IMG/VR virus record: IMGVR_UViG_3300042509_001483
Location: 1 to 60,550 of that record
Strand: one strand, 5' to 3'
Origin: a virus
Taxonomy: Duplodnaviria > Caudoviricetes
Length of the DNA stretch: 60,550 bases
Below are positions 19,890 to 49,288 of the stretch, piece by piece. The translations under genes and the position numbers were made by a program. Under the pieces are notes generated by a model, which was given only the letters and a program-made list of their open reading frames with translations, had not been told where the DNA came from and searched no databases. Positions within the stretch are counted from its first letter, which is position 1. Each line of letters begins with the position of its first letter.

Positions 19890-21878
19890 TCAGATAGTGC
19901 CGTCATCTTGCACAAAGCTGTAAGCAGTGGTCACGAAGTCCTTGTTCAGGATCTCGAAACCAGCGTACAGTTGCCAAATCAGGATGATAAAGCGGCTGAA
20001 GTCATCGTTGTTGTTGATGAGCACCTGAGCGTTAGGACCGCCGATACCAACACCAACAGACTGAGGACCGAAGAAGTAACCTTGGGCCACTTCACGGGAT
20101 GCATAGGTGGAGCCACCATCGAAGGAAGCAGACACGTTCTTGGTCGGGAAGTTGGTCGACTCGAAGAACTTGACGCCTTCAAACTGCACACCAGTCGGCA
20201 TCACGGGTTCACCAGCCAGGAAGTAGCCCTGACCAGCTTGGGGACCCATGTAGAAGCTGGCGTTGTTAGGCATCATGGGGTTACCCATGTACATGCCTTG
20301 GCCAGGATTGCCGCTGTAACGAGCAATCTCACGGAAGTCTGGGTCACGACGCAGGTGCATCATGAAGGTGGGATCGCAGATGCAGCGATACAGACCATCA
20401 GCGAAGGTAGGAGTATTGCGCTTACGCAGGTCCTTAACAACGGTCAGAAGGTCGGTACGCACCTGGAACTGCTGCACCTCATTACCATACTCAGTGGAGG
20501 TGTAAGAAACACGACCCTGAGAATCTTTGGTCTTACCACCAGCGAAATAGTAACCGCCTTGGGTGGTGGAAGCAGCGCCATTGGCTTCTGCTTTGGCAAG
20601 TTCGTCAATGAAGACGCGGTCACGCCAACGGCGATAGTCGTCGAGCAGCGTCAGGCTACCGATCGACTGGTGGAACATGTTGAGGTTACCGGTGTCCAGC
20701 AGAAGACGCTGGGCGGTAATCAGAGTTTCACGCGCAATCTTGAAGGTCGAAGGCTGGGTCGGATCACCCGGGTCGGCAGGACCAGTGTATTCCTTAAGCA
20801 CCACCAGGACTTTCTCCTTGGTGATGTTACGGCTGTTAGCGGTACCGATCGTTTGGTCGGCAATACGCTCACGGCTGTCCTTCGTACCAGGGGTACCCCA
20901 GAACTTATAGCGGTCTAACTGAACGGTTTGACCGGGCTGACGGGTGAAGTCATGGACCACCACGGGCTCCACTGCCATTTCAGCAATGTAAGCAGGGTGA
21001 GGACGGTAAAGTTCCGCACCCAGAATCTTTGGAAAGTCGTTCTCCTGGTCTCTAGTTTCTTAGAGGGGTGGACTATCTCTTCATCCCTGTGGGATGCCGG
21101 ACGCTAAATCTGGTATTACGTAACAAGAGCGTGTTACACCCAGTAGTCTCTGCACCTTCCAATCACGACTTGATTGGCTTGGCTCAGGATTACCCTCGTC
21201 TTTACGTTAGGGCTTCCCTGAATTCATCCGGTTTGCACCCATCGATTGCTCGGTGGGGTGACAACGTTGAGCGTTCAGTTGAGGCATGCTATGCTTTGGA
21301 AAGCTGTTTATGAACAACATGGATCCAAAACTTGTTCCTGGATTTGGTAACCTTTACTTAACGGAAGAGGGAAAAGCTTTTGAAAAACAACTTGATCCCG
21401 ATAATCAAGAATATTTTCAAGAGATTCCCATTCGTTCAACCAGTGTTTACGACCGCATTTCAGTTCTTGTAGATGGGAAGAGAAAACGTTTTCATCTTCA
21501 TGTCTTGATGGCGGTTGCTTTCTTAGGATTAGATCTTCGTTCACATGGAACTAGTAACTTTTCCTTACAAGTTGATCACAAAGATAATGACAAGAGGAAT
21601 AATCGACTTGACAATCTAGAGATCGTTACCAAACAAGAGAACTTAACAAGAGCCTGGAAGAGCGGTTGTTATAAAAACAATGGCTTTGCCAGTAAAGGAG
21701 CACCGAAGAAATCTTTGAGAAAATTTTCTTCGGAGGATGTGGCTCAGATTAAAGCTTTAAAAGAAGCGGGACTTTCTTATCGAAAGATTGCTGAAAAGTT
21801 TAGCTGTAACCACGGAGCTATTTACCAAATCTTGAAGGGCTATACCTACCAGGATCTGAACTAGCTATCAATAAACAC
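19890..21878 (-). CDS. Major capsid protein, spliced: exon 1 21878-21867 (MFID), exon 2 21041-19890; about 387 aa
   Basis: GGAGG RBS then GTG TTT ATT GAT; splicing gives MFIDNDFPKILGAELYRPHPAYIAEMAVEP...; HK97-like features (GQTVQLDRY, FEGVKFFES, DDFSRF); follows portal and scaffold. Confidence 0.85.
21042..21866 (-). mobile_element. Group I intron (IC3 / trnL-like core) in the major capsid gene
   Basis: P AATTCAGGGAA, Q AATCCTGAGC, R GTGCAGAGACT, S AAGAGATAGTCC; IGS GTTGTCA pairs with TGAT|AGC giving the U-G splice pair; terminal G; splicing restores the frame. Confidence 0.92.
21310..21864 (+). CDS. Intron-encoded HNH homing endonuclease (antisense to the intron) with C-terminal HTH
   Basis: RFHLHVLMAVAF...QVDHKDNDKRNNRLDNLEIVTKQEN; KFSSEDVAQIK..GLSYRKIAEKF; TGcTATGCT extended -10 at 21287-21295. 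Confidence 0.9.
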   Translation: MNNMDPKLVPGFGNLYLTEEGKAFEKQLDPDNQEYFQEIPIRSTSVYDRISVLVDGKRKRFHLHVLMAVAFLGLDLRSHGTSNFSLQVDHKDNDKRNNRLDNLEIVTKQENLTRAWKSGCYKNNGFASKGAPKKSLRKFSSEDVAQIKALKEAGLSYRKIAEKFSCNHGAIYQILKGYTYQDLN

Positions 21879-21976
21879 CTTGGTTTATCCTCCAGTGTCG
21901 ATGTTTTTATCGGGTGAAAGATAAAGACATTTACGTCTTATCTAACACAAATTTTAGCAGGTAGTGAACTTAGATG

Positions 21977-22609
21977 TCACATGTACTGCGTACTAGCGTA
22001 AGGTGTTACGCCATATTTGGCACTTGCCGTGTTGCTAGACCCAGGAGATTCTGGATCAATTGCACCACCTTGACCAAACCCTGGAACACCCATAGAACCA
22101 GGAATCGCGCCAAGAGCAACGCCGCCGAGACCAGCGGTAATTGCTGCGGTAGGTGCTGCAATAACACCTAAACCTCGCTTAAGGCCTGTTTCAATCCCAG
22201 CTCCTGTAACGGAAGGGAGTCCTTGCAAGGCGCCTGCTAATCCCCCGAGGGCAGCGGCACGTTTACTAGAGCCTGCTTTTTGTGCGCGTTCCGCATTGAT
22301 CGCAGCCGCTTTTGCAGCTTCTTCCGCTGTTATTTCCCGCGCAGAGGTTTTTAAAGGAGCGTAGATATTTTGTGAAGCAGTGGTAAGACCGCGAACAGCG
22401 CCTTCGCGGCCAGTATTTACTGCTTTAGCAATGTCTCCTGCATATTTACCGGCAAGAGCCCGAGCACCCAATAAACCCGCACCTGCACCAAGGCCACCGG
22501 CAGCCGCAGCAAGAGCAGCAGATCCAGGATCTTCACTTTGGGAAAGGGCATACCCACCAACGCCTAAAGCAGCGGCAGCAGGTACACCGTATTTAAGAGC
22601 GCCACGCAT
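21977..22609 (-). CDS. Ala/Gly-rich hypothetical protein
   Basis: ORF between scaffold and capsid; GAGG upstream. Confidence 0.6.
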   Translation of the reverse strand: MRGALKYGVPAAAALGVGGYALSQSEDPGSAALAAAAGGLGAGAGLLGARALAGKYAGDIAKAVNTGREGAVRGLTTASQNIYAPLKTSAREITAEEAAKAAAINAERAQKAGSSKRAAALGGLAGALQGLPSVTGAGIETGLKRGLGVIAAPTAAITAGLGGVALGAIPGSMGVPGFGQGGAIDPESPGSSNTASAKYGVTPYASTQYM

Positions 22610-49000: not shown

Positions 49001-49243
49001 ATGACTGACTACACCGACGATCAACTACTTGCCATGGCTATGGCCAACATTGGTGAGTACATCACAGACAACTCACCACAGTACATCTTGATTGAAGAAG
49101 ATCCTCGTAATGAGGATGACTATGATAGCTGGACTTACGGAATGGAAGTCCTACCTCAAGATCACACTTGGCAGCATGCGTCAATTGACGTAAGCGTAAG
49201 CCCAAGTGATGGGGACGTAGCCCAATCGGAAGTAGGCAAGTGA
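49001..49243 (+). CDS. Acidic hypothetical protein whose 3' end runs through element A into the tRNA
   Basis: ORF track. Confidence 0.5.
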   Translation: MTDYTDDQLLAMAMANIGEYITDNSPQYILIEEDPRNEDDYDSWTYGMEVLPQDHTWQHASIDVSVSPSDGDVAQSEVGK

Positions 49244-49288
49244 CTTAAAATCACTCAAGTACGAGTTCGAATCTCGTCGTCCCTACCA
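49211..49288 (+). tRNA. trnL: tRNA-Leu(UAA) with short variable loop and encoded CCA
   Basis: Acceptor GGGGACG/CGTCCCT; anticodon arm AGTGA-CTTAAAA-TCACT; T arm ACGAG-TTCGAAT-CTCGT; discriminator A then CCA. Confidence 0.92.

What the first reader, a model, noticed from the sequence alone, without database searches (positions are those of the whole stretch)
21042..21878. Group I intron after codon 4 of the major capsid gene, with its HNH gene antisense inside the P1 loop
Seen: exon 1 is only 12 nt. The IGS (GTTGTCA, about 21260-21266) lies roughly 600 nt from the 5' splice site because an opposite-strand HNH ORF fills loop L1; its stop codon is 2 nt from the splice site and it has its own extended -10. 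The core resembles the cyanobacterial tRNA-Leu(UAA) IC3 intron. Known: phage group I introns mostly sit in nucleotide-metabolism and replication genes with sense-strand endonuclease genes. Inference: capsid synthesis depends on splicing, and the endonuclease mRNA is antisense to P1, so it could time capsid expression. ORF callers truncate this capsid protein by 25 aa.
Basis: partly seen in the sequence, partly recalled or inferred. Interest (0 to 1): 0.8.

Follow-up and report, generated by a model that had tools for sequence, protein, structure and literature searches.

The report
Capsid-gene intron with backward endonuclease gene
The coat-protein gene of this freshwater cyanophage is interrupted four codons after its start by a genuine, mobile self-splicing (group I) intron that carries its DNA-cutting "homing" gene backwards in its first loop; it is a well supported new example of a layout already shown in another phage.

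Summary
Rfam finds a full-length group I intron at 21049-21291 (-), 90.3 bits. The inserted block is 825 nt (21042-21866). Exon 1 is 12 nt with a GTG start, not ATG.

An I-HmuI-like HNH gene lies on the opposite strand between the two strands of P1.

Evidence that the intron is spliced:
- Phage S-EIVl, which lacks the intron, and 112 of 120 database homologues read exactly as the predicted ligated exons.
- Across 59 distinct copies, 17 ribozyme pairs show compensatory changes, against 3.7 in shuffles.
- The HNH gene has dN/dS of about 0.10.
- The 21 exon-2 codons that only a spliced mRNA can translate vary almost only at third positions.
- Lake metatranscriptome contigs hold the exact 825-nt skip, plus two permuted junctions at the predicted terminal G, as expected of intron circles.

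Versions of the intron without the HNH gene (271-277 nt) also exist.

Not supported: the resemblance to the IC3 tRNA-Leu intron. Untested: the idea that antisense transcription times capsid expression.

A capsid intron with a bottom-strand endonuclease gene is published for mycobacteriophage LittleE (PMC3706429). This scan has already reported this same element on other genomes. It is a new member of a known kind.

The parts
21951..21980 (-). Promoter-like site upstream of the capsid gene (GTGACA, 18 nt, TAAAAT, with TG before the second hexamer)
   Evidence: Consensus scan, 10 of 12 matches. A similar CTGCTAAAAT is seen upstream in S-EIVl. Function not shown.
21889..21893 (-). Shine-Dalgarno GGAGG of the capsid gene
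   Evidence: Read from the sequence. GGAGGAT is kept in every intron-less and intron-carrying locus printed.
21867..21878 (-). Exon 1: GTG start plus three codons (12 nt)
   Evidence: Intron-less relatives read straight from these 12 nt into exon 2.
21042..21866 (-). Group I intron, 825 nt; its 3'-terminal G is at 21042
   Evidence: Rfam RF00028, 90.3 bits. The insertion is bounded by comparison with 58 intron-less loci. RNA contigs skip exactly 825 nt.
21864..21870 (-). 5' strand of P1 (last 4 nt of exon 1 plus first 3 nt of the intron), with U.G at the splice site
   Evidence: 7 of 7 pairs, unchanged in 59 of 59 distinct copies.
21856..21861 (-). 5' strand of the P1 extension (P1a), which helps close the long loop
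   Evidence: 6 pairs, 100% paired, one compensatory G-C to A-U change. Also present in the copies without the HNH gene.
21319..21864 (+). HNH homing-endonuclease gene, 181 aa from the start shared by all copies (ATGs at 21286 and 21310 also lie in frame); antisense to the intron
   Evidence: Pfam HNH_3 3.6e-10. PHROG 59 2.3e-26. I-HmuI (1U3E) E 8.1e-5 over residues 46-178. The ORF is intact in 58 of 58 distinct copies. Median dN/dS 0.099.
21267..21295 (+). Likely promoter of the HNH gene: TTGAGC, 17 nt, TATGCT with TG upstream
   Evidence: Read from the sequence. Kept across copies: TAnnnT 58 of 58, TGnTAnnnT 55 of 58, TTGAGN 16-18 nt upstream 53 of 58. Below the threshold of the scan. Activity not shown.
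21273..21278 (-). 3' strand of P1a
21259..21266 (-). Internal guide sequence: 3' strand of P1 (21259-21265) and the P10 partner of exon 2 (21263-21266)
   Evidence: Unchanged in 59 of 59 copies.
21049..21258 (-). Ribozyme core, P2 to P9, including an extra hairpin between P7 and the 3' strand of P3 (21110-21143)
   Evidence: Rfam alignment. 17 of 75 pairs show compensatory change against 3.7 +/- 1.1 in shuffles.
19890..21041 (-). Exon 2 of the major head protein gene (383 codons plus stop)
   Evidence: Open frame. PHROG 1357 'major head protein', E 3.3e-17.

Best explanation
This is a working, mobile group I intron, 825 nt long, inserted after codon 4 of the major head protein gene of an S-EIV1-like freshwater cyanophage.

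How it most likely works:
1. The pre-mRNA folds so that the end of the 12-nt exon 1 pairs with a guide sequence 601 nt downstream (P1). An extension helix (P1a) helps close the long loop between them.
2. The core (P2-P9) removes the intron. P10 lines up exon 2, giving an mRNA for the 387-aa protein.
3. Unspliced RNA can yield only a 5-residue peptide, or a protein lacking 25 N-terminal residues.
4. The loop between the P1 strands holds, on the opposite strand, an I-HmuI-like HNH endonuclease gene, probably with its own extended -10 promoter. Its expression would thus be uncoupled from the strong late capsid transcript.
5. Its inferred role is to nick or cut intron-less capsid alleles of co-infecting relatives, so that repair copies the intron in (homing).

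Shown here: the anatomy, selection on the RNA structure, selection on both reading frames, polymorphism for the intron, and RNA junctions.
Inferred: the endonuclease activity and its target, the promoter activity, and homing itself.
For: - Rfam RF00028: 90.3 bits, full model.
- P1 and P10 can be drawn with U.G at the 5' splice site and G at the 3' end, unchanged in 59 of 59 distinct copies.
- Ribozyme structure: 96.8% of cells paired. 17 pairs show compensatory change, against 3.7 +/- 1.1 in shuffles (0 of 500 reach it) and 1-4 in the slid controls.
- S-EIVl has an uninterrupted ORF that reads across the site.
- 112 of 120 listed homologues start (M/V)F(I/L)D(N/T/S)DFPK.
- Of the 80 best IMG/VR capsid loci: 58 have no intron, 14 have the full intron, 1 has a 276-nt form without the HNH gene, and 7 are cut inside the intron by a contig end.
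- All 80 HNH loci lie in this intron at this site.
- Exon-2 codons 1-21 in intron-carrying alleles vary at codon positions 4/1/20.
- HNH gene: ORF intact in 58 of 58 distinct copies; median dN/dS 0.099 over 1631 pairs; variable sites by codon position 74/46/147.
- On a tree of 113 distinct exon-2 sequences, intron presence needs 22 changes of state.
- RNA-library contigs from one study: the joint 21040->21866 skips 825 nt in runs X17 (2 contigs) and X18 (1 contig). Two joints go back: 21273->21042, and 21307->21040, which with its 2-nt play can be read as 21309->21042. Both end at the predicted terminal G, as circular intron RNA would.
Against: - No experiment on this phage.
- All RNA evidence comes from assembled contigs of two runs of one study. 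The permuted contigs have low depth (2.9 and 4.7).
- The libraries may contain DNA, and I laid no silent control stretch.
- Intron-less alleles occur in the same sample: a loose end in run X18 carries an exon-1 variant seen only in intron-less loci. The 825-nt skip alone therefore does not prove splicing.
- Runs X15 and X16 hold contigs that run unbroken across intron and exon.
- P1 and P10 never vary, so covariation cannot test them.
- The HNH match to I-HmuI is weak (25.5 bits), and the helix-turn-helix hits are below Pfam's cut-offs.
- The promoter scan did not list the proposed HNH promoter.
Confidence: 0.9

Rival explanations
1. The insertion is a dead or non-splicing element. The phage makes a capsid protein shortened by 25 residues from the internal ATG at 20978 (MAVEP), as gene callers predict.
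For: An ATG lies at that place in all relatives. Two database entries are annotated this way.
Against: - The 21 codons upstream of that ATG stay under third-position-only variation in 46 distinct intron-carrying alleles.
- They cannot be reached by any start codon in unspliced RNA.
- The ribozyme shows compensatory changes in 17 pairs.
- RNA contigs hold junctions at the terminal G.
Confidence: 0.03
2. One reading: the HNH mRNA, which is antisense to the 5' part of the intron, to exon 1 and to the capsid ribosome-binding site, delays or tunes capsid synthesis by blocking P1 formation or by head-on transcription.
For: - A conserved promoter-like element faces the capsid promoter.
- No terminator-like site lies on the + strand between 21864 and 22200.
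- A precedent in another cyanophage, seen only as a reference title: an antisense RNA linking psbA to a homing-endonuclease gene in S-PM2 (reference list of PMC3428280).
Against: - No strand-specific or time-resolved data exist; contigs cannot show strand.
- 58 of 80 relatives do without the intron, and at least 16 contigs carry the intron without the HNH gene. Any such control is therefore dispensable.
- Antisense placement is explained more simply as a way to escape the capsid transcript and its ribosomes.
Confidence: 0.1
3. The RNA junctions are not products of the ribozyme. The 825-nt skip would come from intron-less alleles (RNA or contaminating DNA), and the permuted joints from assembly or reverse-transcription artefacts.
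For: Intron-less alleles are present in the same run. The libraries may hold DNA. Depths are low, and both runs belong to one study.
Against: Two different permuted joints, in two runs, both end at the predicted 3'-terminal G (one exactly, one within its 2-nt play). Their sides are 65 and 35 letters. Linear phage DNA gives no such joint.
Confidence: 0.15

Closest known systems
Major capsid gene intron of mycobacteriophage LittleE (Cluster J; Pope et al. 2013, PMC3706429; section 19 and passages of the figure 10 legend read)
   Same: An intron of about 820 bp in a phage major capsid gene, with U before the 5' splice site and G at the intron's end. The endonuclease reading frame is on the bottom strand ('transcribed in the leftwards direction'). 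A related endonuclease-less intron exists (BAKA tail gene). Splicing was shown there by RT-PCR and N-terminal sequencing.
   Different: - No DNA similarity: no Mycobacterium phage is among the 33 records matched.
- The paper's text likens that reading frame to a LAGLIDADG enzyme; here it is an I-HmuI-like HNH.
- The type of that intron was left 'most likely group I'; here it scores 90 bits on RF00028.
- Here the intron sits 12 nt after the start codon and the gene fills the P1 loop. The position of the LittleE gene within its ribozyme is not given in what I read.
I-HmuI, the HNH nicking homing endonuclease (PDB 1U3E). That it comes from the Bacillus phage SPO1 DNA polymerase intron is recalled, not from a call.
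   Same: The HNH core aligns, including the D-H ... N ... N pattern. The length is similar (181 against 174 aa), with a C-terminal helix-turn-helix-like part.
   Different: Only 25.5 bits, E 8.1e-5. I-HmuI is encoded on the sense strand of its intron (recalled). The target and the nicking behaviour of this enzyme are unknown.
Cyanophage Pf-WMP3 DNA polymerase intron with I-PfoP3I (PMC3428280; abstract and passages read)
   Same: A freshwater cyanophage group I intron of the phage type, with extra helices after P7, carrying an HNH endonuclease gene. It was shown to self-splice.
   Different: There the ORF is on the sense strand and runs from P6a to P7.2, the host gene is the DNA polymerase, and P2 is absent. 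Here the ORF is antisense in the P1 loop, the host gene is the capsid gene, and P2 is present and covaries.
Antisense endonuclease genes in nuclear rDNA group I introns, e.g. I-DirII of Didymium (passage in PMC3073962)
   Same: An endonuclease gene on the strand opposite to the intron, expressed from its own promoter.
   Different: Eukaryotic nuclear rDNA, an RNA polymerase II promoter, a spliceosomal intron and a poly(A) tail. No protein-coding host gene.

Membership tests
Group I intron (Rfam RF00028) | Covariance-model score above the curated gathering score over the whole core | tested here: met
   90.3 bits against 50, model positions 1-253 of 253. The copy without the HNH gene scores 90.5 bits.
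Group I intron (Rfam RF00028) | 5' splice site after a U that forms U.G with the guide sequence (P1), G as the last intron base, and P10 with the 3' exon | tested here: met
   Drawn from the sequence. P1 is paired in 59 of 59 distinct copies, but it never varies, so covariation does not test it.
Group I intron (Rfam RF00028) | Conserved core helices P3-P9 maintained by compensatory change | tested here: met
   17 of 75 pairs change on both sides, against 3.7 +/- 1.1 in shuffles (0 of 500) and 1-4 in slid controls. This includes P2, P6, P6a, P7, P8 and P9.
Group I intron (Rfam RF00028) | Precise removal at the RNA level and guanosine-dependent self-splicing | tested here: inconclusive
   RNA-library contigs hold the exact 825-nt skip and two permuted joints at the terminal G. 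They are contigs from one study, and intron-less alleles are present in the same run. In vitro splicing is not testable here.
HNH homing endonuclease, I-HmuI-like | HNH motif and family match | tested here: met
   Pfam HNH_3: 39.8 bits against a cut-off of 24.8. PHROG 59: 2.3e-26. 1U3E: E 8.1e-5.
HNH homing endonuclease, I-HmuI-like | C-terminal helix-turn-helix DNA-binding module | tested here: inconclusive
   HTH_38 22.1, HTH_23 21.4 and HTH_7 17.4 bits, all below their cut-offs.
HNH homing endonuclease, I-HmuI-like | Cuts or nicks the intron-less allele and drives homing | not testable with these tools
   Indirect evidence only:
- Alleles with and without the intron coexist.
- 22 changes of state on the capsid tree.
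- 23 of 39 distinct intron-less flank combinations keep the identical site.
- Upstream flanks of intron-carrying alleles are more alike: 0.93 against 0.83 identity in the first 50 nt.
   - No direct comparison was possible, because no IC3 sequence was on hand.
- Against it: an extra covarying hairpin between P7 and the 3' strand of P3, the place where PMC3428280 puts the IA2-defining P7.1/P7.2.
- The best DNA matches are phage introns.
- The P4-P5 pattern gave 0 matches in genome contigs.
Phage capsid-gene intron with opposite-strand endonuclease gene (LittleE type) | Host gene is the major capsid gene, and the endonuclease ORF is on the other strand inside the intron | tested here: met
   PHROG 1357 'major head protein', E 3.3e-17. 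The ORF is on the + strand inside an intron on the - strand. This is the same layout, not shared descent: no DNA match to mycobacteriophages.

The most novel reading that the evidence does not exclude
The intron-endonuclease pair is more than a passenger. It may act as a weapon between co-infecting S-EIV1-like phages. The HNH enzyme, made early from its own promoter, would cut the start of the capsid gene of intron-less relatives. Their capsid production would be crippled while the carrier's own gene, whose target site is split by the intron, stays immune. Head-on antisense transcription could add a delay to the carrier's own capsid expression. The many switches of intron state across the capsid tree, and the lineage of introns without the HNH gene, would then reflect an arms race rather than neutral homing cycles.
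Probability: 0.2. Interest if true: 0.65.

Novelty: new member of a known kind. Interest (0 to 1): 0.4.

Why it matters
**Annotation.** Gene callers shorten the major head protein of this widespread freshwater cyanophage lineage by 25 residues, and assemblies often break inside the intron. Of the 160 loci fetched, 13 end there. The published S-EIVl record also lacks the capsid ORF in its annotation.

**A natural system for homing dynamics.** One uncultured lineage offers all three allele states in public data:
- no intron
- intron without the endonuclease gene
- intron with a backward endonuclease gene

Each state has dozens of diverged copies. That is good material for studying how such elements spread and decay, and why an endonuclease gene would sit antisense inside a very highly expressed late gene.

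**A splicing question.** The 5' splice site lies only 12 nt from the start codon. Ribosome binding and P1 formation should therefore compete on the same stretch of RNA.

**Limits.** It does not reveal a new kind of element. The layout is in print for LittleE, and this scan has already reported the same element on other genomes.

Tried and rejected
I used the search for related loci on IMG/VR instead.
- **Capsid fold.** A single-sequence AlphaFold model of the 387-aa homologue P0002 had mean pLDDT 31.6 and is useless, so I ran no fold search. The PDB sequence search gave only a chance-level hit, E 0.26. Pfam gave nothing for the capsid protein. The capsid identity therefore rests on PHROG 1357 and on gene order.
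- **Bacterial genomes.** No relative of the HNH protein turned up by the close-relative method, and there was no exact match to a P4-P5 core pattern. Both searches are narrow, so they are weak evidence of absence.
- **Phage isolates.** The only protein-level relative of the HNH is a 29% match in Vibrio phage JSF38.
- **Depth tables.** Exon 2 is deeper than the intron in X17 and X18, and some bins have no cover. I did not use this as evidence, because contig depths cannot rank parts of a gene.
- **Origin of the copies without the HNH gene.** I considered that L088 is a one-off deletion. I rejected this because 16 contigs carry 10 different short loops whose stems change in a compensatory way. 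On a poorly resolved ribozyme-core tree (2 of 44 branches starred) the state with or without the gene needs 8 changes, and at least 3 are forced by starred branches. The direction, gain or loss, stays open.
- **Flank comparison.** The upstream gene is so diverged (identity 0.37-0.59) that the alignment there is unreliable. Only the first 100 nt carry weight.
- **Literature.** Searches for S-EIV1 together with intron found 6 papers. I opened two of them and neither describes this intron; the other four I saw only in the listing. The S-EIV1 genome paper (PMC4542036) is not held. PMC11620839 (intron endonuclease in phage competition) I saw only as the start of its abstract in the listing.
Full report
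**What is there**

On the minus strand, Rfam's group I intron model matches 21291..21049 over its whole length: 90.3 bits against a gathering score of 50, E 7.8e-22. It is the only intron in the 60,550-bp virus record.

The called capsid ORF is 19890..20978 (-), 362 aa, starting MAVEP. The same frame stays open upstream to 21041.

Further upstream, at 21878..21867, a GTG preceded by GGAGG opens four codons. An in-frame TAG follows two codons into the inserted block. The block 21866..21042 is 825 nt. It begins after a U and ends in G.

On the plus strand, an ORF ending at 21864 lies between the two strands of P1. It matches HNH_3 (39.8 bits against a cut-off of 24.8) and PHROG 59 (2.3e-26). It also matches the solved nicking endonuclease I-HmuI (1U3E, E 8.1e-5 over residues 46-178).

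**The splice junction**

The nearest isolate is Synechococcus phage S-EIVl (82.5% identity over the flanks). It has no insertion. An uninterrupted GTG-started ORF reads from the same four codons straight into the exon-2 sequence.

Of the 120 best database homologues:
- 112 begin (M/V)F(I/L)D(N/T/S)DFPK and are 386-389 aa long.
- 2 begin at MAVEP (362 aa).
- 6 begin ten residues in, at a different called start.

The guide sequence pairs with the last four bases of exon 1 and the first three of the intron, with U.G at the splice site. The four bases 5' of it pair with the first four of exon 2. So P1 and P10 place both exons side by side.

**Is the ribozyme kept by selection?**

I aligned 59 distinct copies covering exon 1, the intron and 12 nt of exon 2 (alignment A1), and counted a hand-drawn structure of 75 pairs.
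- 96.8% of cells are paired.
- 17 pairs change on both sides, against 3.7 +/- 1.1 in shuffles (0 of 500 reach it) and 1-4 when the partners are slid.
- Compensatory changes fall in P1a, P2, P6, P6a, P7, P8, P9 and the hairpin between P7 and the 3' strand of P3.
- P1 itself is unchanged in all 59 copies, so it is compatible with the structure but not tested by covariation.
- Diversity is 0.044 in the core, against 0.113 in the endonuclease gene.

**Is the capsid protein made from spliced RNA?**

In 46 distinct intron-carrying alleles, the first 21 codons of exon 2 vary at codon positions 4/1/20. In 39 intron-less alleles the figures are the same, 4/3/21. These codons are therefore translated in intron carriers.

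In unspliced RNA they are preceded by an in-frame TAA seven codons upstream, with no start codon between. Only ligation to exon 1 can bring them into a reading frame.

**RNA data**

Six RNA libraries hold part of the stretch. I laid the contigs of four of them.

In two runs of one study, contigs join 21040 to 21866 with one base of play, which is the exact 825-nt removal: X17 with 2 contigs, X18 with 1. This alone is ambiguous. Intron-less alleles are in the same sample, since a loose end carries an exon-1 variant seen only in intron-less loci. The libraries may also hold DNA.

More telling are two joints that go back:
- 21273->21042 in X17 (side 65 letters, no play).
- 21307->21040 in X18 (side 35, two bases of play, so 21309->21042 fits as well).

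Read on the RNA strand, the predicted last G of the intron is linked to an internal intron position, giving circles of 232 and 268 nt. Circularisation by the terminal G is a known side reaction of group I introns (established knowledge, recalled).

By my own reading of the sequence, the second site follows a U in a pentamer that matches the end of exon 1 in 4 of 5 bases. The first site follows a tetramer that matches in 3 of 4.

Both contigs have low depth (2.9 and 4.7) and come from one study, so this is supporting evidence, not proof. Runs X15 and X16 hold contigs that run unbroken across the intron.

**The endonuclease gene**

All 80 IMG/VR loci found with the HNH protein (88-99% identity; 118 relatives in all) carry it in this intron at this site. 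Of these, 74 are complete and 6 are cut by a contig end.

The ORF is intact in 58 of 58 distinct copies. The start shared by all corresponds to 21319, giving 181 aa. Median dN/dS is 0.099 over 1631 pairs, and variable sites by codon position are 74/46/147.

Upstream, TGnTAnnnT is kept in 55 of 58 copies and TAnnnT in 58 of 58, while the three inner bases vary. TTGAGN lies 16-18 nt further up in 53 of 58. My regular expression allowed some play in position. The -35-like hexamer is the complement of ribozyme sequence between P1a and P1, which is also present in copies without the gene. The -10 belongs to the inserted cassette.

The palindrome CTAG at 21861-21864 supplies the stop codon of the HNH gene on one strand and the stop of the unspliced capsid frame on the other.

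**Three allele states**

- 58 have no intron.
- 14 have the full intron.
- 1 has a 276-nt intron without the gene.
- 7 break inside the intron.

A pattern search found 16 contigs with such short introns (271-277 nt where complete). They carry 10 different loop sequences, whose stems change in a compensatory way. One loop type shares both of its ends with the sequence flanking the HNH cassette. The cassette therefore sits in the terminal loop of that hairpin.

On a tree of 113 distinct exon-2 sequences, intron presence needs 22 changes, against 37.9 +/- 2.7 in shuffles (0 of 300 as low). Presence is thus clustered but switched many times.

On a weakly resolved core tree, presence of the gene needs 8 changes, at least 3 of them forced by well supported branches.

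Intron-carrying alleles resemble the window more than intron-less ones do in the first 50 nt upstream (0.93 against 0.83 identity) but not downstream. This would fit one-sided co-conversion.

All 46 distinct intron-carrying flank combinations keep the bases needed for P1 and P10. Of the 39 intron-less ones, 23 have the identical site and 16 have variants.

**Mechanism**

The best-supported reading is an active homing intron.
- Shown: the anatomy, selection on the RNA structure and on both reading frames, the polymorphism, and the RNA junctions.
- Inferred: that the enzyme nicks or cuts the intron-less site, that its promoter works, and that antisense placement serves to uncouple it from the capsid transcript.

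The many relatives without the gene, or without the intron, show that it is dispensable.

**Subgroup**

The claimed likeness to the cyanobacterial tRNA-Leu IC3 intron is not supported.
- The core has a covarying hairpin between P7 and the 3' strand of P3. This is where PMC3428280 places the helices that define IA2.
- Its best DNA matches are introns of Vibrio, Klebsiella, Escherichia, Staphylococcus and Ralstonia phages. These include endonuclease-less introns that split a Vibrio phage terminase gene.
- A core pattern found nothing in one genome each of 185,579 species.
- I could not run a direct comparison with an IC3 intron.

**Comparison with what is known**

Group I introns in phage capsid genes are in print: Tuc2009, cited in PMC3706429, and LittleE. 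The LittleE intron carries its endonuclease frame on the bottom strand and was shown to splice (PMC3706429, section 19 and figure legend passages).

Antisense endonuclease genes with their own promoters are also known in nuclear rDNA introns (PMC3073962 passage).

I found no paper describing this intron in S-EIV1-like phages, but the S-EIV1 genome paper is not held.

This scan has already reported the same element on other genomes, with the same closest relative. I reached LittleE through my own search before seeing those notes.

**Verdict**

This is a new member of a known kind, of moderate interest. Its value lies in correcting annotation and in offering a rich natural data set on intron and endonuclease turnover.

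Noticed in passing
window 21861-21864: The palindrome CTAG gives the stop codon of the HNH gene on the + strand. On the - strand it gives the in-frame stop that ends translation of unspliced capsid RNA after five codons.
   Followed up: partly
L164, L166-L180 (IMG/VR contigs), e.g. L164 1824-2099: A lineage of 271-277-nt introns at the same capsid site without the endonuclease gene. Their P1 loop is capped by a short hairpin whose stem changes in a compensatory way (10 loop variants in 16 contigs).
   Followed up: partly
L009, L042, L064 (A1 columns 740-775) and L174: The hairpin between P7 and the 3' strand of P3 is replaced as a block by a different hairpin of similar size in a few copies. 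This looks like a modular swap rather than point changes.
   Followed up: no
L082, L095, L097, L099, L127, L141, L156 and L002, L014, L019, L032, L043, L057: 13 of the 160 fetched contigs begin or end inside the intron. Assemblies seem to break there, probably because alleles with and without the intron coexist in one sample.
   Followed up: no
L001 (KJ410740.1, S-EIVl) 1585-2736: The deposited annotation of S-EIVl has only short 'hypothetical protein' CDSs on both strands here. It misses the 383-aa major head protein ORF.
   Followed up: partly
window 21920-21942 and 21951-21980 (-): A promoter-like site and an A/U-rich hairpin lie in the capsid 5' leader. A similar arrangement is seen in S-EIVl.
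   Followed up: no
window 21977-22609 (-): The Gly/Ala-rich 210-aa ORF just upstream of the capsid gene has no family match. It is far more diverged among relatives (identity 0.37-0.59) than the capsid gene (0.8-0.9).
   Followed up: no
L163 (MG592553.1, Vibrio phage 1.187.O) 225-2063: A terminase gene is annotated in three pieces separated by gaps of about 225-235 bp. The gaps hold cores related to this intron, and a GIY-YIG nuclease gene lies just downstream.
   Followed up: no
window 49211-49285 (+): A tRNA gene (Rfam tRNA, 60.2 bits).
   Followed up: no
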